From: an uncultured Nitrososphaeraceae archaeon
GTDB taxonomy: Archaea; Thermoproteota; Nitrososphaeria; Nitrososphaerales; Nitrososphaeraceae
Direction: 5' to 3'
DNA length: 64,000 bases
NCBI GenBank assembly: GCA_963825865.1
Contig: CAWGVG010000033.1
Coordinates: 66,540-130,539, forward strand
The position numbers and the translations under genes are program-made. This document shows, piece after piece, positions 12,564 to 23,784 of the stretch. Within the stretch, counting starts at the first letter, position 1; the number at the start of each line of letters is the position of its first letter. Below the pieces are notes generated by a model that did no database searches, had not been told where the DNA came from, and saw only the letters and a list, made by a program, of their open reading frames with translations.

Positions 12564-14228
12564 TCAATTAGATGGAAAAATGCGAAAGTTAAACCCAAAT
12601 TCAGTGCTGCCTCCACCTGTACGTGCTAATGCAGCAGCGTTTTTATTATCACTTTCTATAGGAAATAAAGCATCTATAGTTGTATTATTGCCCATCGTTA
12701 TTGTGGAGCTTTGCTGCATAGGACCATCAGATCCAGAACCTCCAATGTAGCTTCTGCTGGTAGGGCTTTGATATACACCTCTTGGAGATTTTGCCTTATG
12801 AGGATGGTTTGTGCTGATGCTACTGTCGTCTGATCCGGGACCCACATTGTCGCGACTGCTGCCGCTTTCTCTTCCACCTGTAGCCACAGGATTATAGTTA
12901 CTGCTGCCACTACTGTGACCGGGATAGCCCAGGTATTCCATACCTGATACCTTGCCAGTGCCGCTGTTCCCTAGACTAGTTACTTGATTGGCATTAGCTG
13001 CGTCAGGGTAGCCCAGGTATGAATCCTTACCTGATACCTTGCCAGTGCCGCTGTTCCCTAGACTAGTTACTTGATTGGCATTAGCTGCGTCAGGGTAGCC
13101 CAGGTATGAATCCTTACCTGATACCTTGCCAGTGCCGCCGTTCCCTAGACTAGTTACTTGATTGGCATTAGCTGCGTCAGGGTAGCCCAGGTATGAATCC
13201 TTACCTGATACCTTGCCAGTGCCGCCGTTCCCTAGACTAGTTACTTGATTGGCATTAGCTGCGTCAGGGTAGCCCAGGTATGAATCCTTACCTGATACCT
13301 TGCCAGTGCCGCCGTTCCCTAGACTAGTTACTTGATTGGCATTAGCTGCGTCAGGGTAGCCCAGGTATGAATCCTTACCTGATACCTTGCCAGTGCCGCC
13401 GTTCCCTAGACTAGTTACTTGATTGGCATTAGCTGCGTCAGGGTAGCCCAGGTATGAATCCTTACCTGATACCTTGCCAGTGCCGCCGTTCCCTAGAAAC
13501 GTGGTAGTAATTACTTGACTGGCATTAGCTGCGTCAGGGTAGCCCAGGTATTCCATACCTGATAGGTTGCCAGTGCCGCCGTTCCCTAGAAACTTTGTAC
13601 TAGTTACTTGACTGGCATTCTTGGAAATCAGGTACGGTAGTATTGCACTTCTGGTATTATTAGATACTACATGAGTGGTCTGCTGGATCGGAATGGTATT
13701 CTTATAAGTTGTATTTGATACATTTTGCTGCCCCTGTTGTTGTTTAGCAGTAGTCGCCACTCCAGTAATATTTACACTATTAAAAGATGTTAAACCAGGA
13801 TTATTACTGCATGTATATTTAGCTGTAATTTTATTATTTGGTCCTTGTTTTATTGTAGTGTAATTAGAACTAAGTACAAAATTCCATTTAGAAAAATCTG
13901 CTCCTCCGCCAGGGCCAATTCCAGTAGCCGGTTGATATGGTTTTACACCATTTGCAATAACAGATACTTGGCAATGAGTTGTTGTTATTGTTGCATTACC
14001 AGGAGTATAGACTCCAGACACTGTAAGTTCTTTATCTATTGGTAATTCTTGGCCTTTAGTAGGAGATGTTATTTTAATAGAATGTAATTTCGGGACTGAT
14101 GGTGATGGCGTCTGCTGTGTATTTATGGCTACCTTTTGGGCATAAATTACAGTGGTATTGGTCAAAACAGCAAAAATAAGTAAGCTGACCACCAACAATA
14201 CTGTGAAAACTCGAGTACCGTAATTCAT
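12564..14228 (-). CDS. Secreted protein with Ig-like N-terminal domain and 29-aa tandem repeats
   Basis: Signal peptide; IKITSP...CQVSVIANG...KITAKYTC domain; repeats SLGNGGTGKVSGKDSYLGYPDAANANQVT. Confidence 0.85.
   Translation of the reverse strand: MNYGTRVFTVLLVVSLLIFAVLTNTTVIYAQKVAINTQQTPSPSVPKLHSIKITSPTKGQELPIDKELTVSGVYTPGNATITTTHCQVSVIANGVKPYQPATGIGPGGGADFSKWNFVLSSNYTTIKQGPNNKITAKYTCSNNPGLTSFNSVNITGVATTAKQQQGQQNVSNTTYKNTIPIQQTTHVVSNNTRSAILPYLISKNASQVTSTKFLGNGGTGNLSGMEYLGYPDAANASQVITTTFLGNGGTGKVSGKDSYLGYPDAANANQVTSLGNGGTGKVSGKDSYLGYPDAANANQVTSLGNGGTGKVSGKDSYLGYPDAANANQVTSLGNGGTGKVSGKDSYLGYPDAANANQVTSLGNGGTGKVSGKDSYLGYPDAANANQVTSLGNSGTGKVSGKDSYLGYPDAANANQVTSLGNSGTGKVSGMEYLGYPGHSSGSSNYNPVATGGRESGSSRDNVGPGSDDSSISTNHPHKAKSPRGVYQSPTSRSYIGGSGSDGPMQQSSTITMGNNTTIDALFPIESDNKNAAALARTGGGSTEFGFNFRIFPSN
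12920..13620. repeat. 87-bp coding tandem repeat, about 8 units
   Basis: GCCAGTGCCG recurs at 12954, 13041, 13128, 13215, 13302, 13389, 13476 and, 93 bp later, 13569. Confidence 0.95.
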
Positions 14229-14472
14229 ATAATTATCAAATATTGTTAACGTACTTTATATGGAGATGGTTTCACAATAGTATAACCAAGCTTAAAGTGA
14301 TTCTAGACCTATTTTTTTATGAATGATTGTATTATTACATAGTGAGAGTGAGATGTCTCATGAGATGTATCACAAATGGTAACGATCCATTTGTTGATAG
14401 ATAATAGTTAGTAATAGATTATGCAAATAAAATAGCTATTGAATTGTTAACGTGTCTACAACCTTTGAATCG

Positions 14473-14712
14473 CTAACTTTTCCTTTTTCTAATTTTTGAT
14501 ATTGCATATTGAAGAAGATATTTTTGATCTTTCAATCCTGTAGATCTCCAATAGTATTTGTTAACAATGTAAGATATGACCCACCAAATAACACTATTCA
14601 CTACGATCGTAAATGGAAAACCATAATAATATGTCATTATTGTGCCAGTTATAGTACCGCCTATAAGAAATGGTATTTGGCGCTTCATTATTGACTTTAG
14701 AATTTTGTCCAC
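14473..14712 (-). CDS. Small membrane protein
   Basis: 79 aa, two hydrophobic segments, basic tail. Confidence 0.65.
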   Translation of the reverse strand: MDKILKSIMKRQIPFLIGGTITGTIMTYYYGFPFTIVVNSVIWWVISYIVNKYYWRSTGLKDQKYLLQYAISKIRKRKS

Positions 14713-15131
14713 GTCGACGTGTGCTCTCTATATCCCATATAGATCGCTTGGTTTATTAATATTATAAAAATAGGTATCAGTTTCAGTTGACTATACATGA
14801 TTTTCACTTCCTCCTCCCAAAATAATTTACGTATTTCTAATACTTGATTATACTCCTAACAATTGTGTAAATCGTCTGTTGTATACAATTATAATTATGC
14901 ATTTTGGAAACGGCTTATTATTATCTTTACCATTCACCAATCTTGGGTACATAGTTATAATACGTTAAGGCGATGACGCTGCATATTCCACACATAATAG
15001 TTCAAACATAATATGACAGAGAACGGGAAGGAAAATTTTACACTGAAAAAAGGTCACTTCAAAAAAGTCGTTCAGTACATCAGTAGTAGAAAGAAAAAGG
15101 TCTTTCTTTTGTTCCTTTTTTTACATTTAGT

Positions 15132-15557
15132 TCAAGCGGTTCCTTGCTCAGATTCGTCTTCGGTTTCGGTTTCGGTTGCACCCGCTGTTCCTTTTGTCAT
15201 TCCGCTTCTTCTAGCTCTTTCTGTCGCCTCTTGAGTGTTTTGTCCTGCTTGTCCTGGTTCTGTAATCACTTCACTCATTTCTCTCTTTACAGCCGTTGGT
15301 TCATGTTCCTTTATTTTTGCAGGTGTCATCGGCTCTTTCTCTTTGTACTGAGTTAGAGGATCTTCTTTTCCTCCGTATTCATGGTCTGTGCCTGATCCAC
15401 CTTCTTCAAATCGTCTGTCTTCAGCGTTACTAGTAGAACTACCTGTAGTGGAAGATATACCTTCTTTAGTTGTGTTAGTTGCCTTCTCTGTAACACCCTT
15501 TACTTTGTCTTTAGCATCCGTTACTTTTTCTTTAACCTTATCCTTAATCTTACTCAT
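15132..15557 (-). CDS. Hydrophilic, LEA/stress-like hypothetical protein
   Basis: K/E/T/G-rich; KDKVKEKVTDAKDKVK repeats. Confidence 0.75.
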   Translation of the reverse strand: MSKIKDKVKEKVTDAKDKVKGVTEKATNTTKEGISSTTGSSTSNAEDRRFEEGGSGTDHEYGGKEDPLTQYKEKEPMTPAKIKEHEPTAVKREMSEVITEPGQAGQNTQEATERARRSGMTKGTAGATETETEDESEQGTA

Positions 15558-16097
15558 TGTTATTGAACTATTCTACAATGTATTAATGAATCCTCTACAA
15601 TTATTATATAAGAAAAATTAGTACATTTATCTATAAATCCTATGCACTTTTTGGCATATTAGTTCTATGACAGTATAATATATTTGTTATTTGCAGATAA
15701 GTAAACAAAAATATTATATGTTGATGCAATCTATTATGAAAAAGTTAGCGCATACAGCCAATGATTCATTCCTGCTACTGAAACAAACATTCAGATGTCA
15801 ATCTCTTCCCCCGATAGGGGGCATGAATCTCTACCGTTTATCTTTGTCAGAGTAATGTGGTTACAAAATACCTTCCTTTGAAAAAGTTTTCTCTCTTCAA
15901 CTCTATCGAAGATTAACGTACTTTGGTTTAAGGCCAGCTTGTTTTCTGTTTCAGCAAACACTATCGGTTCATCATCTGTCTTAGTTATACAGATTTTAAT
16001 GTAGTGTGAACCTTCTCCATGCTGTCTGAAGCGGATTGTAAAACATGTTTAGCCGTTACAAAGTGCGCTGCATGAAGGTCAGATTGTGATTGAATGC

Positions 16098-16397
16098 CTA
16101 CAAAAAAACCTGTTCCGAGAGGGATAACTCCATTGATTTTTTCTTCAAAAATTCGTATTGTTCAATGTAAGCAAATGTAGCTTCTCGTACTTACAAACCA
16201 ATATGTGCAGATTCAAGAATCTTTTTTGGTTGACCTGTTTGAGGATCTATCACATACTGTCCTGTTCTTGGGTCTAAAAGATATTCCTGGCTTAACTCAA
16301 GTGCTTTTGCTTGAAGAAAATCATAAACTTCGTCATTAACTCTGAAACCAACTGGTGTCAGTTTGTTTTTCTTAGGCTTAGTGTTAGGTGTTGACAT
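16098..16397 (-). pseudogene. Ribbon-helix-helix-like DNA-binding protein with an in-frame TAA at 16191-16193
   Basis: Strand-helix KLTPVGFRVNDEVYDFLQAKA; reading through the stop gives IGL*VREATFAYIEQYEFLKKK, a typical second RHH helix; 3' coordinate approximate. Confidence 0.55.
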
Positions 16398-16419
16398 TTA
16401 TCACTTTATCACTTATCAC
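16398..16419. promoter_or_regulatory. Three adjacent TTATCAC heptamers abutting the start codon of the RHH-like gene (putative operator)
   Basis: TTATCAC at 16398, 16406, 16413; start codon (CAT on + strand) at 16395-16397. Confidence 0.65.
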
Positions 16420-16654
16420 GCAAGGTAAATCCGGATTCTTTTTAAGGCTGAGCATAAAATGCCCTAAAGTGCGAACCAAATGGACCTCAATCAGGTTTAA
16501 TTGGTTCTTACAACTTTTTTCTACAACAGAAATTATTCCAGCTAAGCCTTTATACACTATCATATAATTTTTGAATTTATAACAGTTAGCATAAAACTGG
16601 GGAAAACTGGCAAAAAACAAACTTTTTGTGATTGACTTTTTCCGGAAAATTTTG

Positions 16655-16862
16655 TTATCACTTTATAGAATGTTATCACTAACCAAGGTTCTTATCACAA
16701 ACACCGGGACTTATCACGCAAACCATGCCTTATCACGAAAACATGTCTTACCACCTAGGGTATGAGTTATCACTCTGAAAATTTTTATCACTCTTATCAC
16801 TCTTATCACGTCCGTTAACTTTATCACAGAAAAATCTTATGTGATAATGTAAATCTTATCAC
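16655..16862. repeat. Phased TTATCAC heptamer array (iteron/centromere-like)
   Basis: Copies at 16655, 16673, 16692, 16711, 16730, 16748 (TTACCAC), 16767, 16785, 16794, 16803, 16821, 16856; inverted copy at 16841. Confidence 0.9.
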
Positions 16863-16995
16863 GTATCTCATCTTTTTTTGTGATATAAGGCATAAGCAAT
16901 GATTCAAAGTGCGGTAAATGAGTATTGGAAACTAATAGCAATTGATTCACTTGAAAGTTCTATCAATGCAGAAAGACTGTCAGATGCAGAACAGC

Positions 16996-17283
16996 CTATA
17001 TTAGCATAGCTATGTAATGCTCAGTAAAGTAATCTTGTGATGATATGTACTTGTTGTTGTTGTCCTCCATACATAAATTATTGTCTATTAAAATACCATT
17101 TACAACAATATCAATATAGTCATTGGGAATATTAGTATAATTTTTGAGTTTACTGCGTAAATCACCTTCCCAATTCGTTGCAATAACATTTTGGTTAATT
17201 TGTGGCGCAATTATTCTAAATCCATTAAAGAAGGGAGACGTAAAAGTAACAAAGAAGCCGTATGTTAATGAAGTAATAGCCAT
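16996..17283 (-). CDS. Hypothetical protein, possibly a fragment
   Basis: 95-aa ORF with hydrophobic N-terminus. Confidence 0.4.
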   Translation of the reverse strand: MAITSLTYGFFVTFTSPFFNGFRIIAPQINQNVIATNWEGDLRSKLKNYTNIPNDYIDIVVNGILIDNNLCMEDNNNKYISSQDYFTEHYIAMLI

Positions 17284-17480
17284 AAAGAAGAAGCCAGTAA
17301 ATGAAGATGTAACAAGCCCCTTTTTTACTACCCTACGAAGTTCCTAATTCGTTTTTAAATTTGCAAAACATTATACGGTTTATGGTAATAGTGGCGCTAA
17401 TCAGGATTCGACTAAACAGGTCTTGCAGTAAGGTTATAGTTTATTACCTAGTTTAATAAAGATATTTTACTGTTTGTTGT

Positions 17481-17681
17481 ATGGCGTCTAGAGATGAACA
17501 TACTATCAAGTGTAGTATTTGTGGACGAATGTTGATAGTTAGTGATATCGTTAATAATGGAGTAGCTTTTCTAAGCCATTTGAAATTAGACCATGGTATT
17601 ACATATACTCCTCAACGTATGACTGAAGTACGGACCAAGAGTAAAAGTGTAGAAAATCAAACATACAAACTACTTGAATAA
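17481..17681 (+). CDS. Small C2H2-type zinc-finger protein
   Basis: CSICG...HLKLDH. Confidence 0.65.
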   Translation: MASRDEHTIKCSICGRMLIVSDIVNNGVAFLSHLKLDHGITYTPQRMTEVRTKSKSVENQTYKLLE

Positions 17682-17940
17682 GTATATAATTATAAGACTA
17701 AAACTCGTTGTTATCATATCTACCATTAGATCTTGAAGAAACAAGTATGTATTCCAACAACAAATAAAATCTTGGAAAGCATTTCTATATAATAATAGAG
17801 TGTAAAAATAACACCTTTTCTTAACACCTTAAGTAAGCTTCATAACACTAATCTCAAGAGCCCTCACTGGCAATACTATATCGTTAAATAATTTAGGGTA
17901 CTGCTGTTTGATCCTAAATGAATATGTTATCATCCGATTC

Positions 17941-18072
17941 CTAGTAATCATTATTAGAGGTGATCACCTTATCTACTGGATGAGGGATCTCGCCTTTTTC
18001 CGCATGCTCTGCCATATGTTTGGAAGCATTTTCATTATCTATGTTTTTGTTGCATATCCTACAGGAAACCAT
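17941..18072 (-). CDS. Unlisted 43-aa C2H2-type zinc-finger microprotein
   Basis: Manual translation MVSCRICNKNIDNENASKHMAEHAEKGEIPHPVDKVITSNNDY. Confidence 0.5.
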   Translation of the reverse strand: MVSCRICNKNIDNENASKHMAEHAEKGEIPHPVDKVITSNNDY

Positions 18073-18255
18073 AGAGGTTTTTGTTTACTCTATTTTTAAC
18101 TCTTCTGGTTATTGGCCACTATAAACGAAAGGGGTTAATATGAACATGTAACGGGTTCATTGTTTTATTGATCAACTCTTAGATTCAACCTACAATATCG
18201 TATGGCATTTTTGTATATTGGTTATTCCTTGGTTTAGCTATTTTTATCATTATTA

Positions 18256-19611
18256 TTATCGATGACCCCATGTAAAAAACATAATTACAACTGACGCACC
18301 CATTGCGAGAAATGTCGACCAGCCCACAATATTAGGCATTTTTCCATTAGTATTTTCTTTGAGGATTTTCTTATCATTTGATATCTTCATAATTGCAAAG
18401 AGAATGGGAACAGCGGTAATCCCGTTTATAATAGCTGTGTATAATAACGCTTTAATTGGGTCTATATTTACAAAATTCATTAGCAATCCTATTGATGTCG
18501 AAGCAGCTATTACTAAATAAAACGCCTTTGCCTGTCTGAATCTTTTATTCAGACCTTGTTTCCATCCAAATGTATCGGCTAATGCGTAGCCTGATGAACC
18601 AGCTAAAACGGGTACCGCCAATAGTCCAGTTCCAATTATACCAAATGCAAATATGGTTTTAGATATCTCACCTGAATGCGGAAATGACTTTACTAAAGGT
18701 TCTAACGCCTTTGCAGCTTGTTCTGCAGTTTTTATATCAGTTATGCCATGAGAGTGAAGACTTCCTGCCGTTGTTATCATTATAGTCCATGCAATTAATT
18801 CTGCAAATGCAATTCCTGCTGCAATATCTATTTTCATAAACTTTATTTCCTTTTTTGACACTCTAGGATTGCCTTTTCCAATTTCTTTTATCTTTTGTTT
18901 GGCAACATCTTCTTCAGCTTCTTCGGATGTTTGCCAGAAAAATAAGTAAGGCGATATTGAAGTACCAAATATAGCAACAAATATCATTGCAAATGCCGGT
19001 GTGAGCTCTATATGTGGAATTATGCTTGATACTAATATCTGGCTCCAGTTACCTCCAACAATAGTGGCAGTGATAACATACGCAAAAAGAGAGAGTGCAA
19101 TATATTTTAGAATCATTACATATTTTTTATACGGTATGATAATCTCAGAACCAATGATTAATAATGCAAAAGAAATTGTAGTCATAAAAACTGGTAGCTC
19201 AGGAACCAAAAGTCTTACAGATGCTCCCATCGCGGCAATATCAGCCCCTATGTTTATCGTATTTGCAATAATGAGCAGGCCTGCGAGTGGAAATACAACC
19301 TTCTTTGAGTACCTCTTCTTTATAACAGAAGATAACCCGTTACCTGTCACCAATCCTATCCTTGCGCAAATTTCCTGAATAACGGTCATCATGGGATATT
19401 GAAATAATGCCATCCATAACAATCCAAAGCCGAACTGTGCTCCTGCTTGGGAAAACGTTGCTATACCTGATGGGTCATCGTCAGATGCTCCTGTTATCAC
19501 CCCGGGACCAAAAGACTTGAGCGTTTGTTTGACAGAGGATAACTCGGTTGCTTCTTTTTTTCCTTTTTGGTGCTCTTCGTCTGCTATTTTTTCACCATCG
19601 TCATCTTCCAT
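18256..19611 (-). CDS. NRAMP-family divalent metal transporter
   Basis: GPGVITGASDDDPSGIATFSQAGAQFG, GTSISPYLFFWQ; about 11 TM helices. Confidence 0.92.
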   Translation of the reverse strand: MEDDDGEKIADEEHQKGKKEATELSSVKQTLKSFGPGVITGASDDDPSGIATFSQAGAQFGFGLLWMALFQYPMMTVIQEICARIGLVTGNGLSSVIKKRYSKKVVFPLAGLLIIANTINIGADIAAMGASVRLLVPELPVFMTTISFALLIIGSEIIIPYKKYVMILKYIALSLFAYVITATIVGGNWSQILVSSIIPHIELTPAFAMIFVAIFGTSISPYLFFWQTSEEAEEDVAKQKIKEIGKGNPRVSKKEIKFMKIDIAAGIAFAELIAWTIMITTAGSLHSHGITDIKTAEQAAKALEPLVKSFPHSGEISKTIFAFGIIGTGLLAVPVLAGSSGYALADTFGWKQGLNKRFRQAKAFYLVIAASTSIGLLMNFVNIDPIKALLYTAIINGITAVPILFAIMKISNDKKILKENTNGKMPNIVGWSTFLAMGASVVIMFFTWGHR

Positions 19612-21853: not shown

Positions 21854-22012
21854 AGGTTATTACTTGCACCTAAACTCTTAAAGTCCCCGATGGTAAGAGG
21901 GTTAGTACGTTACTATTATTATGAAATACTAACGTGTTGTGTTTGTGATGGTGCATGTCTGGTGTTCACCTGCACTTATGATACAAGTCGCAAATTGTGA
22001 ATTAAGTTCAGT

Positions 22013-22240
22013 TTGCGTGCAATCACCTGCGAAAGGCTAGTGGAGCATACATTCTCTAAAGAAGCAAACTTTACTCAGGCTACATTCTGCAATCAAGAAT
22101 ACTTTGGCGAGGCTACATTCTCCAATAAAGGAGTTAAACTCTCTGAAACAGCCAGCCCGGGAATCAGATCCGATTTAAAGGAGAGGTTGATACTGCCAAC
22201 AGCAGTACGAGGAACAAAGGAGGAACTCTGGCTGTGGTAG
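22013..22240 (+). pseudogene. Pentapeptide-repeat protein fragment
   Basis: TFSKEANFTQATFCNQEYFGEATFSNK. Confidence 0.4.
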
Positions 22241-22760: not shown

Positions 22761-23495
22761 TTATAGAGACATATTTGTTTAATCGATTTCTTTCATTCAT
22801 TCATTCATTGATGCTACAGAAACTAAAATGAAAATTAGAAGCGCTTAAAAGATTAAGTCCCTGGAGCAAAGGTAAAAAAGTAGGAAATTCTGCTGCCTTC
22901 AAAGCATTGGAAACAAAGCGTAGGAAAAGATATAGCAATATGCTATATTACATGAGATATAGCAATAAGTTGTTAAAAAGGCACTTGTCAGTTTGTTATG
23001 CTACTATGAATTAGAGGAGCATTTCCTATTACAAATTTGGGTTCCTAACTTTTCTGAATAGTCCAAGAGGAATGGAGTAAATTAAGTCCACCATAAAGTT
23101 GCATTCCTTACACAGTCGTAATATATCCTAATGGAAAGGCTGTAAAAACAACTACAACAAAAAACATATGCTATTTTTCTAGCATGTTGAAACTATTTTG
23201 ACCGTCTAGTAGTTTTCTATTATTCAATACAATAATACTAAAAATTTTAGCATATGTCTATATATCAATAAGTTTTTCAAATATATGTTATTGTATATGT
23301 GATTTAACATACGATAACCTAATAGGCATAAACTGTATATATATATAATCGTACATCTCTGCGGTAATCTTCTGATGAAATGACATCAAAAACATTAAAA
23401 GTGAACGTCTGACACTTGACACAACTTGCAGTCAGAGGATTATACTACATAGGTGTACTAAAAGCAATAAACAAACAAAGAGAGAAATGAGAGAT

Positions 23496-23784
23496 ATGGT
23501 TTGCAAAGGTATATGCGTACAGTCACAAGGCACATAAGCCAGTCGGCGAAGGTCGTTATGCTACTGGACAGAAACGCTGTCAGGTATGTGAGATATTTGT
23601 TAATTGGAACGGATTATGGTGTCCGTGCTGCGGATATAGATTAAGATCAAAGCCCCGAAATTTAAAATTTAAGACAAAATTGCGCGAAAACAAGAACCCA
23701 GATGACGAAAGACAGGAGGAATCTCCAACAAAGGCACAGAGTCAACAACTGGCAGCTATTAGATTAACACATAAAAGACTATAA
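23496..23784 (+). pseudogene. Cys-rich zinc-binding small protein with one extra base near 23520 (not in ORF track)
   Basis: MVCKGICV then, in the next frame, HKAHKPVGEGRYATGQKRCQVCEIFVNWNGLWCPCCGYRLRSKPR. Confidence 0.7.

What the first reader, a model, noticed from the sequence alone, without database searches (positions are those of the whole stretch)
16398..16862. Phased TTATCAC heptamer array upstream of a small RHH-like gene: candidate archaeal iteron/centromere-operator system
Seen: 12 direct copies in 208 bp with start-to-start spacings 18,19,19,19,18,19,18,9,9,18,35. Variable 11-12 nt spacers separate most copies, and one inverted copy (16841) sits in the last gap. Three more copies abut the start codon of ORF 16191-16397, which has an RHH-like strand-helix start. 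Established analogy: the RHH protein omega of plasmid pSM19035 binds WATCACW heptad arrays that act as both autoregulatory operator and partition centromere; several copies here read TATCACT or TATCACA. Inference: the RHH-like protein represses its own gene at the triplet and coats the long array as a partition site or origin of an integrated plasmid-like element. I know of no such module described in Nitrososphaeraceae. Alternative: the minus strand is transcribed as a GUGAUAA repeat-spacer RNA.
Basis: partly seen in the sequence, partly recalled or inferred. Interest (0 to 1): 0.85.

Follow-up and report, generated by a model that had tools for sequence, protein, structure and literature searches.

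The report
Heptad-repeat operator of a small archaeal repressor
A small, previously unnamed DNA-binding gene of a soil ammonia-oxidising archaeon carries the same 7-base repeat both at its own start and in a long upstream array; this looks like self-regulation, not a plasmid centromere, and the gene copy here is broken.

Summary
The repeats are real. TTATCAC occurs 15 times in 16398-16862, where about 0.04 would be expected in the 208-bp array alone.

They belong to a conserved module of about 0.9 kb:
- a distal heptad array
- a TTTTCCGGAAAA palindrome
- a conserved 235-bp spacer
- a TATA-like box
- 2-3 contiguous heptads
- the ATG of a small gene

Full-length relatives of that gene (96-105 aa) model as a ribbon-helix-helix (RHH) homodimer. 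All 9 metagenomic relatives with an intact 5' end keep the heptads at the start codon. The distal array is optional, with 0-13 copies.

Close heptad pairs are almost confined to copies of this module (13 of 14 in the genome). Heptads are conserved better than the spacers between them.

No ParA, Rep or integrase gene lies near any copy. The flanks are housekeeping genes.

The window's gene has a TAA at codon 69, which removes helix 2. Soil populations carry TTA there. The other copies in this genome are also broken.

Best reading: an omega-like RHH autorepressor with heptad operators and an accessory upstream array, dispersed and decaying in this genome. The centromere/origin and repeat-RNA readings are not supported. 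Binding has not been tested.

The parts
16655..16862 (-). Distal heptad array. It holds 11 exact copies and 1 variant copy of GTGATAA (read on the gene's strand) plus 1 inverted copy (16841-16847). Start-to-start spacing is 18-19 bp, with one run of three copies at 9 bp.
   Evidence: The same array lies on contig C62, with 0 of 91 heptad positions changed against 8 of 147 spacer positions. A 9-copy version lies on C14, with 11 of 91 against 50 of 144 changed, Fisher p=1.1e-4. Metagenome relatives have arrays of 4, 4 and 2 copies.
16638..16649 (.). Perfect palindrome TTTTCCGGAAAA, next to the array end that faces the gene.
   Evidence: (alignment A3): kept or nearly kept in 7 rows that reach it; all 4 occurrences of this 12-mer in the genome are in copies of this module.
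16420..16654 (-). Conserved 235-bp non-coding spacer between the array and the operator. It includes a mid-spacer TATA-like box followed by ATGAT (about 16560-16583) and an ATTGAGGTC block.
   Evidence: 9-row alignment with invariant blocks and indels that are not multiples of three; only one 7-bp consensus helix and no covarying pair.
16424..16459 (-). Most conserved block, TTTTATGCTCAGCCTTAAAAAGAATCCGGATTTACC. It is the putative core promoter, with the TATA-like TTAAAAAG at 16438-16445 (48 nt before the ATG) and the palindrome AATCCGGATT at 16428-16437.
   Evidence: in 1019 long ORFs of this genome, TATA-like hexamers peak 35-26 nt before the ATG. The promoter assignment itself is an inference.
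16398..16419 (-). Proximal operator: three contiguous GTGATAA heptads in a 7-8 bp register, ending one base before the ATG.
   Evidence: 2-3 heptads stand at the same place in 9 of 9 metagenome loci with an intact 5' end and in 4 copies in this genome.
16098..16397 (-). Gene of the RHH-type protein. The frame has 99 codons and is interrupted by TAA at codon 69 (16191-16193), so the annotated ORF 16191-16397 gives only 68 aa and lacks helix 2.
   Evidence: read-through translation. (full-length relatives P0002, P0003, P0004, P0022); position 16192 reads A, giving TTA Leu, in contigs of soil runs X1, X2 and part of X6.
15801..17077 (.). Extent of the recent segmental duplicate shared with contig C62 (1278 bp, 96.2% identical).
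16995..17077 (-). Fragment of the 5' end of an unrelated multi-copy small-gene family (MYGGQQQQ...YISSQDYFTEHY). It borders the module and is not part of it.

Best explanation
This is an autoregulatory module of a lineage-specific ribbon-helix-helix (RHH) repressor. A dimer of the protein would place its two-stranded beta-ribbon (residues 13-22, with the invariant PVGFRV) in the major groove at each GTGATAA heptad. Two or three contiguous heptads sit between the TATA-like box and the ATG. When occupied they would cover the transcription start and block RNA polymerase recruitment, giving negative autoregulation. The distal array, 235 bp upstream, would be an accessory high-capacity binding region for the same protein. 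It could work as a sink, a cooperative or looping partner, or a roadblock against read-through from the upstream gene. Its copy number drifts through tandem duplication and loss. Shown here: the anatomy, the co-conservation of gene and heptads, the restriction of heptad pairs to this module, and the RHH-type dimer model. Inferred: DNA binding, the promoter position, repression, and the role of the distal array. In this genome the module is dispersed and decaying. The window's gene has a nonsense codon that removes helix 2, and all other copies found are broken too.
For: Protein family:
- One search found 20 metagenomic homologues.
- The most conserved stretch is K9-Y25, which includes the strand TPVGFRV.
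- Full-length members continue into 'HIGLLV[RK]EATFAY', including a member only 62% identical.

Fold:
- The homodimer model scored ipSAE 0.67 against a best control of 0.00. That mark was reached by 20 of 30 proteins solved as pairs of one chain and by 1 of 23 solved as single chains. The runs share at least 98% of contacts and partner pLDDT is at least 77.
- The contacts are 17-17', 19-15' and 18-16' (an antiparallel ribbon) and 70-70', 73-74' and 74-74' (helix 2 against helix 2'), which is the RHH arrangement.
- A VIA-align search of 48,161 chains gave a list dominated by proteins I recall as RHH: MatP, KacA, MazE, ParD, TacA, the PutA RHH domain, pRN1 ORF56, TraM, pCXC100 ParB, FitA, Arc, NikR. 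Rows 11 and 15 name RHH in their titles.

Cis elements:
- 9 of 9 metagenome loci with an intact 5' end, and 4 copies in this genome, have 2-3 heptads abutting the ATG.
- Heptads are perfectly kept where overall DNA identity is 68-76%.
- Against the C14 copy, 11 of 91 heptad positions differ versus 50 of 144 spacer positions (p=1.1e-4). Against C62 it is 0 of 91 versus 8 of 147 (p=0.025).
- 13 of the 14 close heptad pairs in the 5-Mb genome are in module copies.
- The doublet occurs once in each of 9 of 237 other genomes of the family, against 4 hits for the reversed control. None of those has the module's promoter or ORF.

Position:
- TTAAAAAG starts 48 nt before the ATG. TATA-like hexamers peak 35-26 nt before the ATG in 1019 ORFs of this genome. 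This places the expected start of transcription within the first heptad.

Precedent:
- Omega of pSM19035 is an RHH dimer that binds one WATCACW heptad per dimer. It needs two contiguous heptads for high affinity and represses its own promoter (PMC9499535 and PMC4627068, passages read).
Against: - No binding or expression data exist. No RNA run was available.
- No Pfam, NCBIfam or PHROG family matches the protein. The RHH_1 and Omega_Repress profiles do not hit the locus at E<=10.
- Structural matches are weak: best Z is 4.8 and Foldseek found nothing at E<=0.001.
- The dimer pass may partly reflect likeness to solved RHH dimers.
- Every copy found in this 82%-complete genome is defective, so the arrays here have no intact cis-encoded binder.
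- The distal array is missing in 3 of 9 copies that have enough upstream sequence (L011, L016, C10).
- Its 18-19 bp spacing does not allow the contiguous dimer-dimer contacts seen with omega.
- Heptad conservation against C62 rests on few differences, and the alignments are anchored on the heptads themselves.
Confidence: 0.6

Rival explanations
1. One reading: the array is an omega-like centromere (parS) or an iteron origin of an integrated plasmid-like element, coated by the RHH protein.
For: An RHH-type protein paired with an array of heptads that share the ATCAC core of omega's WATCACW (PMC9499535 passages). Array sizes of 9-13 are in the range of parS sites. The module is multi-copy and rearranging. 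Segregation proteins without an NTPase partner encoded on the same plasmid exist (StbA of R388; abstract only).
Against: No ParA, Rep or integrase gene was seen around the window copy, the C62 and C14 copies or loci L010 and L013. The flanks are Nramp, topoisomerase I, P450, CCA-adding enzyme, RIO kinase, aconitase-type, ABC1 kinase, SAH hydrolase and cupin genes. The nearest ParA/MinD-type match is 23 kb from the C14 copy, and none is on the window's contig C33 or on C62. Omega needs at least 4 unspaced heptads to activate ParA, and gaps abolish this (PMC9499535). Here most heptads are 11-12 bp apart, and only 2-3 are contiguous. The array is present or absent at one orthologous locus. No homologue was found in 2.9 million viral contigs.
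Confidence: 0.12
2. The arrays are non-functional tandem expansions inside a dispersed, decaying repeat family. Heptad conservation reflects recent common descent, slippage and gene conversion, not protein binding.
For: All gene copies in this genome are broken while the arrays persist. Copy number varies from 0 to 13. A run of three units 9 bp apart and 112-bp internal similarity show growth by duplication. Orphan arrays without a gene occur on C15, C33:28.9 kb, C30 and C42.
Against: Heptads stay exact while spacers diverge, at 82% identity (C14) and 68-72% identity (L007, L013). The proximal heptads are kept in 9 of 9 relatives at a fixed position beside the promoter. Intact alleles of the gene exist in soil populations.
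Confidence: 0.13
3. The heptads are sites for a different host factor, for example one that also uses the two TCCGGA palindromes. The small gene is merely the regulated target.
For: Two conserved CCGG-centred palindromes and a very highly conserved 36-bp promoter block suggest further factors. The protein's DNA specificity is untested.
Against: Heptad pairs occur almost only in this module (13 of 14). A host regulator would therefore have no other targets. The gene and the heptads always travel together in the relatives found.
Confidence: 0.1
4. The array is transcribed as a repeat-containing RNA (GUGAUAA or UUAUCAC units) that is processed or that titrates an RNA-binding protein.
For: A conserved TATA-like box lies in the spacer about 60 bp from the array. 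A T7 run follows the array on the + strand.
Against: No Rfam match at E<=1. There is no covarying pair. T5-T6 runs inside the array on both strands would terminate archaeal transcription (the rule is recalled). The 7-nt repeats with spacers shared between copies are unlike CRISPR. The same heptads at the ATG are better explained as DNA sites.
Confidence: 0.05

Closest known systems
Omega (ParB_pSM) of Streptococcus pyogenes plasmid pSM19035 and its WATCACW heptad operators/parS
   Same: A small RHH-type dimer. The recognition unit is a non-palindromic 7-bp repeat with the same ATCAC core (9 of 14 direct copies here fit WATCACW). There are at least 2 contiguous heptads in direct orientation on the protein's own promoter, and occasional inverted heptads.
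   Different: No sequence relationship was detected (Omega_Repress profile: no hit). A roughly 28-residue beta-hairpin insert (YLLDPRTGQYVIDPQTGQP) separates helix 1 from helix 2. Only 2-3 heptads are unspaced; the long array has 11-12 bp gaps. There is no ParA (delta) partner and no plasmid context. The host is an archaeon, so the promoter logic is archaeal.
ParG/parH of TP228, ParB of pCXC100 and ParR/parC: RHH centromere-binding proteins on arrays of short direct repeats
   Same: An RHH protein combined with an array of short direct repeats separated by spacers, with dual operator and array use (abstracts of PMC3130281 and PMC3074162 seen). pCXC100 ParB appears in the structural list (Z 3.6).
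   Different: Those arrays are centromeres next to a ParA/ParF/ParM gene on plasmids. Here there is no partner ATPase, the loci are chromosomal, and the array is dispensable in relatives.
CopG/ORF56-type plasmid copy-control and Arc/MetJ-type RHH autorepressors (e.g. ORF56 of Sulfolobus pRN1)
   Same: A small RHH gene that would repress its own promoter through sites overlapping the transcription start. ORF56 is in the structural list (Z 3.8).
   Different: Those proteins bind inverted or pseudo-symmetric sites and are co-transcribed with a replication gene. Here the sites are direct heptads, the gene stands alone, and a second distal array is present.
RHH antitoxins of type II toxin-antitoxin pairs (ParD, MazE, TacA, KacA, FitA)
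   Same: These are the best structural neighbours of the monomer model (Z 4.0-4.8). They are autoregulated small genes, often multi-copy and decaying.
   Different: There is no conserved downstream toxin gene. Homology among relatives ends just after the stop codon (16140-16213).

Membership tests
Ribbon-helix-helix (RHH, MetJ/Arc) superfamily | The N-terminal strands of two chains pair into an antiparallel ribbon across the dimer axis | tested here: met
   This rests on a model only. The homodimer of the full-length relative P0004 scored ipSAE 0.67 against a best control of 0.00. The mark was reached by 20 of 30 solved one-chain pairs and 1 of 23 single chains; contact agreement is at least 98% and pLDDT at least 77. 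Contacts are 17-17', 19-15', 18-16' and 20-16'.
Ribbon-helix-helix (RHH, MetJ/Arc) superfamily | Two helices follow the strand, and helix 2 packs on helix 2' in the dimer core | tested here: met
   Helices span 22-36 and 66-97. Contacts are 70-70', 73-74' and 74-74'. The window's own 68-aa product lacks helix 2.
Ribbon-helix-helix (RHH, MetJ/Arc) superfamily | Match to a curated RHH sequence profile | tested here: not met
   Pfam: no RHH family at E<=1 for the window ORF. At E<=10, NikA-like matched 1 of 15 members at E=0.096. The RHH_1 profile does not hit any module copy at E<=10. The 28-residue insert between the helices may explain this.
Ribbon-helix-helix (RHH, MetJ/Arc) superfamily | Structural similarity to solved RHH proteins | tested here: inconclusive
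   VIA-align: best Z 4.8 (rmsd 2.2-3.4, 54-63 residues aligned). This is below the level the tool calls reliable, although most top rows are RHH proteins. Foldseek: no match at E<=0.001.
Omega / type Ib ParB (Pfam Omega_Repress) with parS | Sequence membership in Omega_Repress | tested here: not met
   No hit.
Omega / type Ib ParB (Pfam Omega_Repress) with parS | Sites made of 6-10 unspaced WATCACW heptads | tested here: not met
   Only 2-3 heptads are unspaced at the promoter. The array heptads are 18-19 bp apart start to start, apart from three at 9 bp. The criterion is from PMC4627068 and PMC9499535 (passages).
Omega / type Ib ParB (Pfam Omega_Repress) with parS | Adjacent Walker-type ParA partner | tested here: not met
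   No such gene in the flanks. The nearest AAA_31/CbiA match is 23 kb from one copy.
Iteron-type replication origin | Rep/initiator gene next to the iterons | tested here: not met
   The flanking ORFs are housekeeping genes or have no match. Not every small ORF was scanned.
Type II toxin-antitoxin (RHH antitoxin) | Conserved co-oriented toxin gene directly downstream | tested here: not met
   Homology among 12 metagenome loci ends at window 16140-16213. The downstream ORFs differ between loci.
Repeat-spacer or structured RNA | Known RNA family match or covarying structure | tested here: not met
   Rfam: 0 matches at E<=1 in 14000-19000. RNAalifold on the gene-strand spacer: 7 pairs, 0 covarying. 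Only the spacer on the gene's strand was folded, not the array itself or the opposite strand.

The most novel reading that the evidence does not exclude
The module is a self-contained, roughly 0.9-kb 'RHH gene plus heptad array' cassette that spreads and is exchanged between chromosomal sites of soil ammonia-oxidising archaea. Its array would act as an omega-like, ParA-independent or trans-served centromere or anchoring site. That would be the first centromere-like protein-DNA system seen in this archaeal group, caught here as relics.
Probability: 0.1. Interest if true: 0.75.

Novelty: new variant of a known kind. Interest (0 to 1): 0.45.

Why it matters
Almost nothing is known about specific transcription factors and their operators in ammonia-oxidising archaea, which are hard to grow and have no genetic tools. 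This module gives a testable protein-DNA pair. The protein is about 100 residues and the site is an exact 7-bp unit, so a single gel-shift experiment could check the pairing. It may also be a case of convergence on the omega-type 'one RHH dimer per heptad' mode in another domain of life, with an unusual hairpin insert in the fold and a bipartite layout (operator plus distal array). The dispersed and rearranged copies bear on how small gene modules move within these genomes. They include a nonsense allele, a frameshift allele, a fusion into another gene, and array gain or loss at one locus. The direct significance is modest: it looks like a narrow-lineage regulator and, in this genome, a set of relics.

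Tried and rejected
- **RNA evidence.** The look-up of sequencing runs listed no RNA holder. The 20 rows are DNA or unclassified soil and rhizosphere runs from 10 studies, so expression could not be examined.
- **Complex prediction.** Used only for the homodimer. No protein-DNA model could be made.
- **Foldseek against the PDB.** Nothing at E<=0.001.
- **PDB sequence search with the family profile.** Only chance rows at E 0.83 and 1.3.
- **ESM Atlas.** Unnamed clusters at 0.91 and a MetJ cluster at 0.90, rank 27. This is a lead only.
- **PHROGs and NCBIfam.** Nothing meaningful.
- **Genome-contig scan.** 151 pattern matches, none a relative.
- **60 relatives searched with the protein.** One weak hit (G015, E 0.002, residues 35-68 only), which I read as the hairpin motif.
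- **Representative-library search.** Many of the 31 hits are long proteins, including giants of 2,000-5,000 aa, whose best matches fall mostly within residues ~23-68, the DPxTGQ hairpin region. They are not homologues of the whole protein.
- **Triplet pattern in viral contigs.** One hit (L026), in front of an unrelated ORF and without the module's promoter. Judged to be chance.
- **Heptad doublet in 238 genomes of the family.** The 9 outside hits lack the module.
- **Search for an empty site using the flanks of L013.** Only the cupin gene is conserved elsewhere, so no insertion boundaries could be defined.
- **A second gene variant on C14.** Rejected. That sequence belongs to an unrelated family whose intact members have a different N-terminus. 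The C14 copy is a fusion with a 41-bp junction duplication.
- **A coding spacer.** The 78-aa ORF 16384-16620(-) is not kept in relatives, because indels break the frame.
- **Similarity of TTATCACA to the bacterial DnaA box (recalled).** Dismissed, because the genome is archaeal (archaeal amoA present).
- **Paper supplements.** Closed. They do not bear on any claim made here.

Full report
**1. Observation**

- Exact TTATCAC copies start at 16398, 16406 and 16413. This triplet ends one base before the ATG of the minus-strand ORF 16191-16397.
- Further exact copies start at 16655, 16673, 16692, 16711, 16730, 16767, 16785, 16794, 16803, 16821 and 16856.
- There is a one-mismatch copy (TTACCAC) at 16748 and an inverted copy at 16841.
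- The window has 32 matches against 12.6 +/- 3.4 in shuffles, and 15 of them lie in this 465-bp stretch.
- In the whole 4.98-Mb assembly the heptamer is no commoner than permuted heptamers: 953 against a median of 993. About 0.04 copies are therefore expected in the 208-bp array.
- The genome is an ammonia-oxidising archaeon: an archaeal amoA is present at E 5e-115.

**2. The module**

The array is one part of a conserved module. Read on the gene's strand, the order is:
- an inverted heptad pair at the far end
- direct GTGATAA heptads
- the perfect palindrome TTTTCCGGAAAA (16638-16649)
- a conserved 235-bp spacer with a TATA-like box
- a 36-bp invariant block, TTTTATGCTCAGCCTTAAAAAGAATCCGGATTTACC (16424-16459)
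- three contiguous heptads
- the ATG

Twelve metagenome loci encode relatives.
- All 9 loci with an intact 5' end have 2-3 heptads abutting the start codon.
- Of those with at least 300 bp upstream, L007, L013 and L018 have distal arrays of 4, 4 and 2 heptads at the same distance. L011 and L016 have none.
- L013 and L016 share a left flank that is 123/124 identical. They differ by a 130-bp block holding the array, and the rest of the module is only about 85% identical. Module alleles have therefore been exchanged at one locus.

Within this genome the module is dispersed.
- A 1278-bp duplicate (96.2% identical) lies on C62, and a 514-bp copy (82.5%) on C14.
- Partial copies lie on C10, C15, C33:28.9 kb, C30 and C59, and there is an orphan array on C42.
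- The 12-mer palindrome occurs 4 times in the genome, always in module copies.
- 13 of the 14 close heptad pairs in the genome are in module copies.
- Heptads are conserved better than spacers: 0 of 91 against 8 of 147 positions changed versus C62 (p=0.025), and 11 of 91 against 50 of 144 versus C14 (p=1.1e-4). These alignments are anchored on the heptads, which biases the comparison.

**3. The gene**

The 68-aa ORF is a truncated allele.
- Relatives of 96-105 aa continue '...HIGLLVREATFAYIEQYEF...'. These are P0002, P0003, P0004 and the 62%-identical P0022.
- In the window the same frame has TAA at codon 69 and then reads VREATFAYIEQYEFLKKKSMELSLSEQVFL.
- In contigs of soil runs X1 and X2, and partly X6, position 16192 is A. 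This makes the codon TTA, Leu.
- The C62 copy has a 4-bp deletion as well as the same TAA.
- The C14 copy keeps the promoter and 23 codons. It is then fused, with a 41-bp junction duplication, into an unrelated gene family.
- The C10 and C59 copies are fragments.
- No intact copy was found in this 82%-complete assembly.

The family has no Pfam, NCBIfam or PHROG name. It was not found in 60 relatives, in 185,579 species genomes or in viral contigs.

**4. Fold**

- The AlphaFold monomer of P0004 has mean pLDDT 71.6. It shows an unstructured N-terminus, helix 22-36, a hairpin region 39-59 and helix 66-97.
- The homodimer test passed: ipSAE 0.67 against a best control of 0.00. The mark was reached by 20 of 30 solved one-chain pairs and 1 of 23 single chains. 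Contact agreement is at least 98% and pLDDT at least 77.
- The contacts form an antiparallel ribbon around G17, with helix 2 packed on helix 2'. This is the RHH arrangement. Because RHH dimers have been solved, the pass shows likeness and is not proof.
- A Foldseek-independent search gave only Z<=4.8, but its list is dominated by RHH proteins.
- The roughly 28-residue insert YLLDPRTGQYVIDPQTGQP between the helices probably hides the family from the RHH profiles.
- The strand PVGFRV, with an invariant R19, is the best-conserved part of the protein. This matches the invariance of the heptad.

**5. Mechanism**

- In 1019 long ORFs of this genome, TATA-like hexamers peak 35-26 nt before the ATG.
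- The module's TTAAAAAG starts at -48. The expected transcription start therefore falls in the first heptad, and the three heptads fill the short leader.
- A repressor bound there would block polymerase recruitment. This is the usual archaeal mode (recalled, not tested here).
- The closest functional parallel is omega of pSM19035. One RHH dimer binds each WATCACW heptad, two contiguous heptads give high affinity, and the heptads overlap the protein's own promoter (PMC9499535 and PMC4627068, passages read).
- I therefore read the proximal heptads as an autoregulatory operator, with confidence about 0.6.
- The distal array is most simply a second, dispensable binding region for the same protein: a sink, a looping partner or a roadblock.
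- It faces no divergent gene. Upstream neighbours run in the same direction.

**6. What is not supported**

*Centromere or origin.*
- No ParA, Rep or integrase gene was seen near the window copy, the C62 and C14 copies, or L010 and L013.
- The nearest ParA/MinD-type match is 23 kb from one copy.
- The flanks are housekeeping genes.
- Omega-type activation of ParA needs at least 4 unspaced heptads (PMC9499535). Here only 2-3 are contiguous.

*Repeat RNA.*
- No Rfam match and no covariation in the spacer.
- T-runs lie inside the array.
- No RNA data exist, so this reading is unlikely but not excluded.

**7. Unexplained**

- Two CCGG-centred palindromes sharing TCCGGA lie 211 bp apart, about 20 helical turns. 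One sits beside each heptad cluster.
- The extreme conservation of the 36-bp promoter block is unexplained.
- So is the conserved mid-spacer TATA-like box followed by ATGAT.
- How the module disperses is unknown.

**8. Verdict**

This is a new, unnamed RHH-type family with omega-like heptad operators and an accessory array. It is confined to one lineage of soil ammonia oxidisers, and in this genome only defective copies were found.

The tallies include six genomes flagged as unpublished (G197, G246, G196, G245, G034, G171). Only 'not found' statements rest on them.

Noticed in passing
window 12564-14228 (-), repeats at 12922-13619: A 554-aa secreted-looking protein contains about 8 tandem 87-bp (29-aa) repeats, '...NQVTSLGNGGTGKVSGKDSYLGYPDAANA...', that are 80-95% identical to each other. 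It has no Pfam family.
   Followed up: no
window 16995-17077; also G000 contigs C7, C60, C12, C13 (x2), C37, C54, C48: An 80-bp repeat is the 5' end of a multi-copy small-gene family that starts MYGGQQQQ..YISSQDYFTEHY..AML on the minus strand. Here and on C62 it is a frameshifted fragment abutting the module.
   Followed up: partly
window 16864-17051: Contigs of two soil runs (X1, X4) join 16863 directly to 17052, skipping 188 bp. This puts the last array heptad next to the start of the MYGGQQQQ gene fragment.
   Followed up: no
residues 35-68 of the protein (window 16194-16295, -): The hairpin insert YLLDPRTGQYVIDPQTGQP matches repeated stretches of long metagenomic proteins (many of 2,000-5,000 aa) and short proteins built of DPxTGxP repeats (P0023, P0027, P0043, P0044). 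It appears to be a widespread small beta-hairpin repeat motif.
   Followed up: no
G000 contig C42:5326-5437 (L022): An orphan array of five GTGATAA heptads (spacings 43, 31, 19, 18) has flanks unrelated to the module and no nearby ORF of 60 aa or more.
   Followed up: partly
G000 contig C14:32013-32460 (L025 10014-10462): The module's promoter and first 23 codons are fused into the middle of an unrelated gene family (relatives P0050, P0053: '...SEAYDYVKKFVWLMIHTWNEDDG...'). The junction has a 41-bp tandem duplication at a short shared E(V/A)YD(F/Y) stretch.
   Followed up: yes
window 16428-16437 and 16638-16649: Two conserved palindromes share TCCGGA (AATCCGGATT and TTTTCCGGAAAA) and lie 211 bp apart. 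One sits beside the operator and one beside the array. Both are mutated at the centre in the C14 copy.
   Followed up: partly
window 21938-22125 and 23474-23696: Two further short sequences are repeated on several other contigs at 73-82% identity (C14, C15, C62; C3, C8, C23, C28, C51). Their nature is unknown.
   Followed up: no
whole assembly G000: The assembly is 4.98 Mb at 82% estimated completeness, at the upper end of the 0.8-6.3 Mb range for this family. It also holds many dispersed repeats and pseudogene copies. It could be a large repeat-rich genome or a mixture of strains.
   Followed up: no
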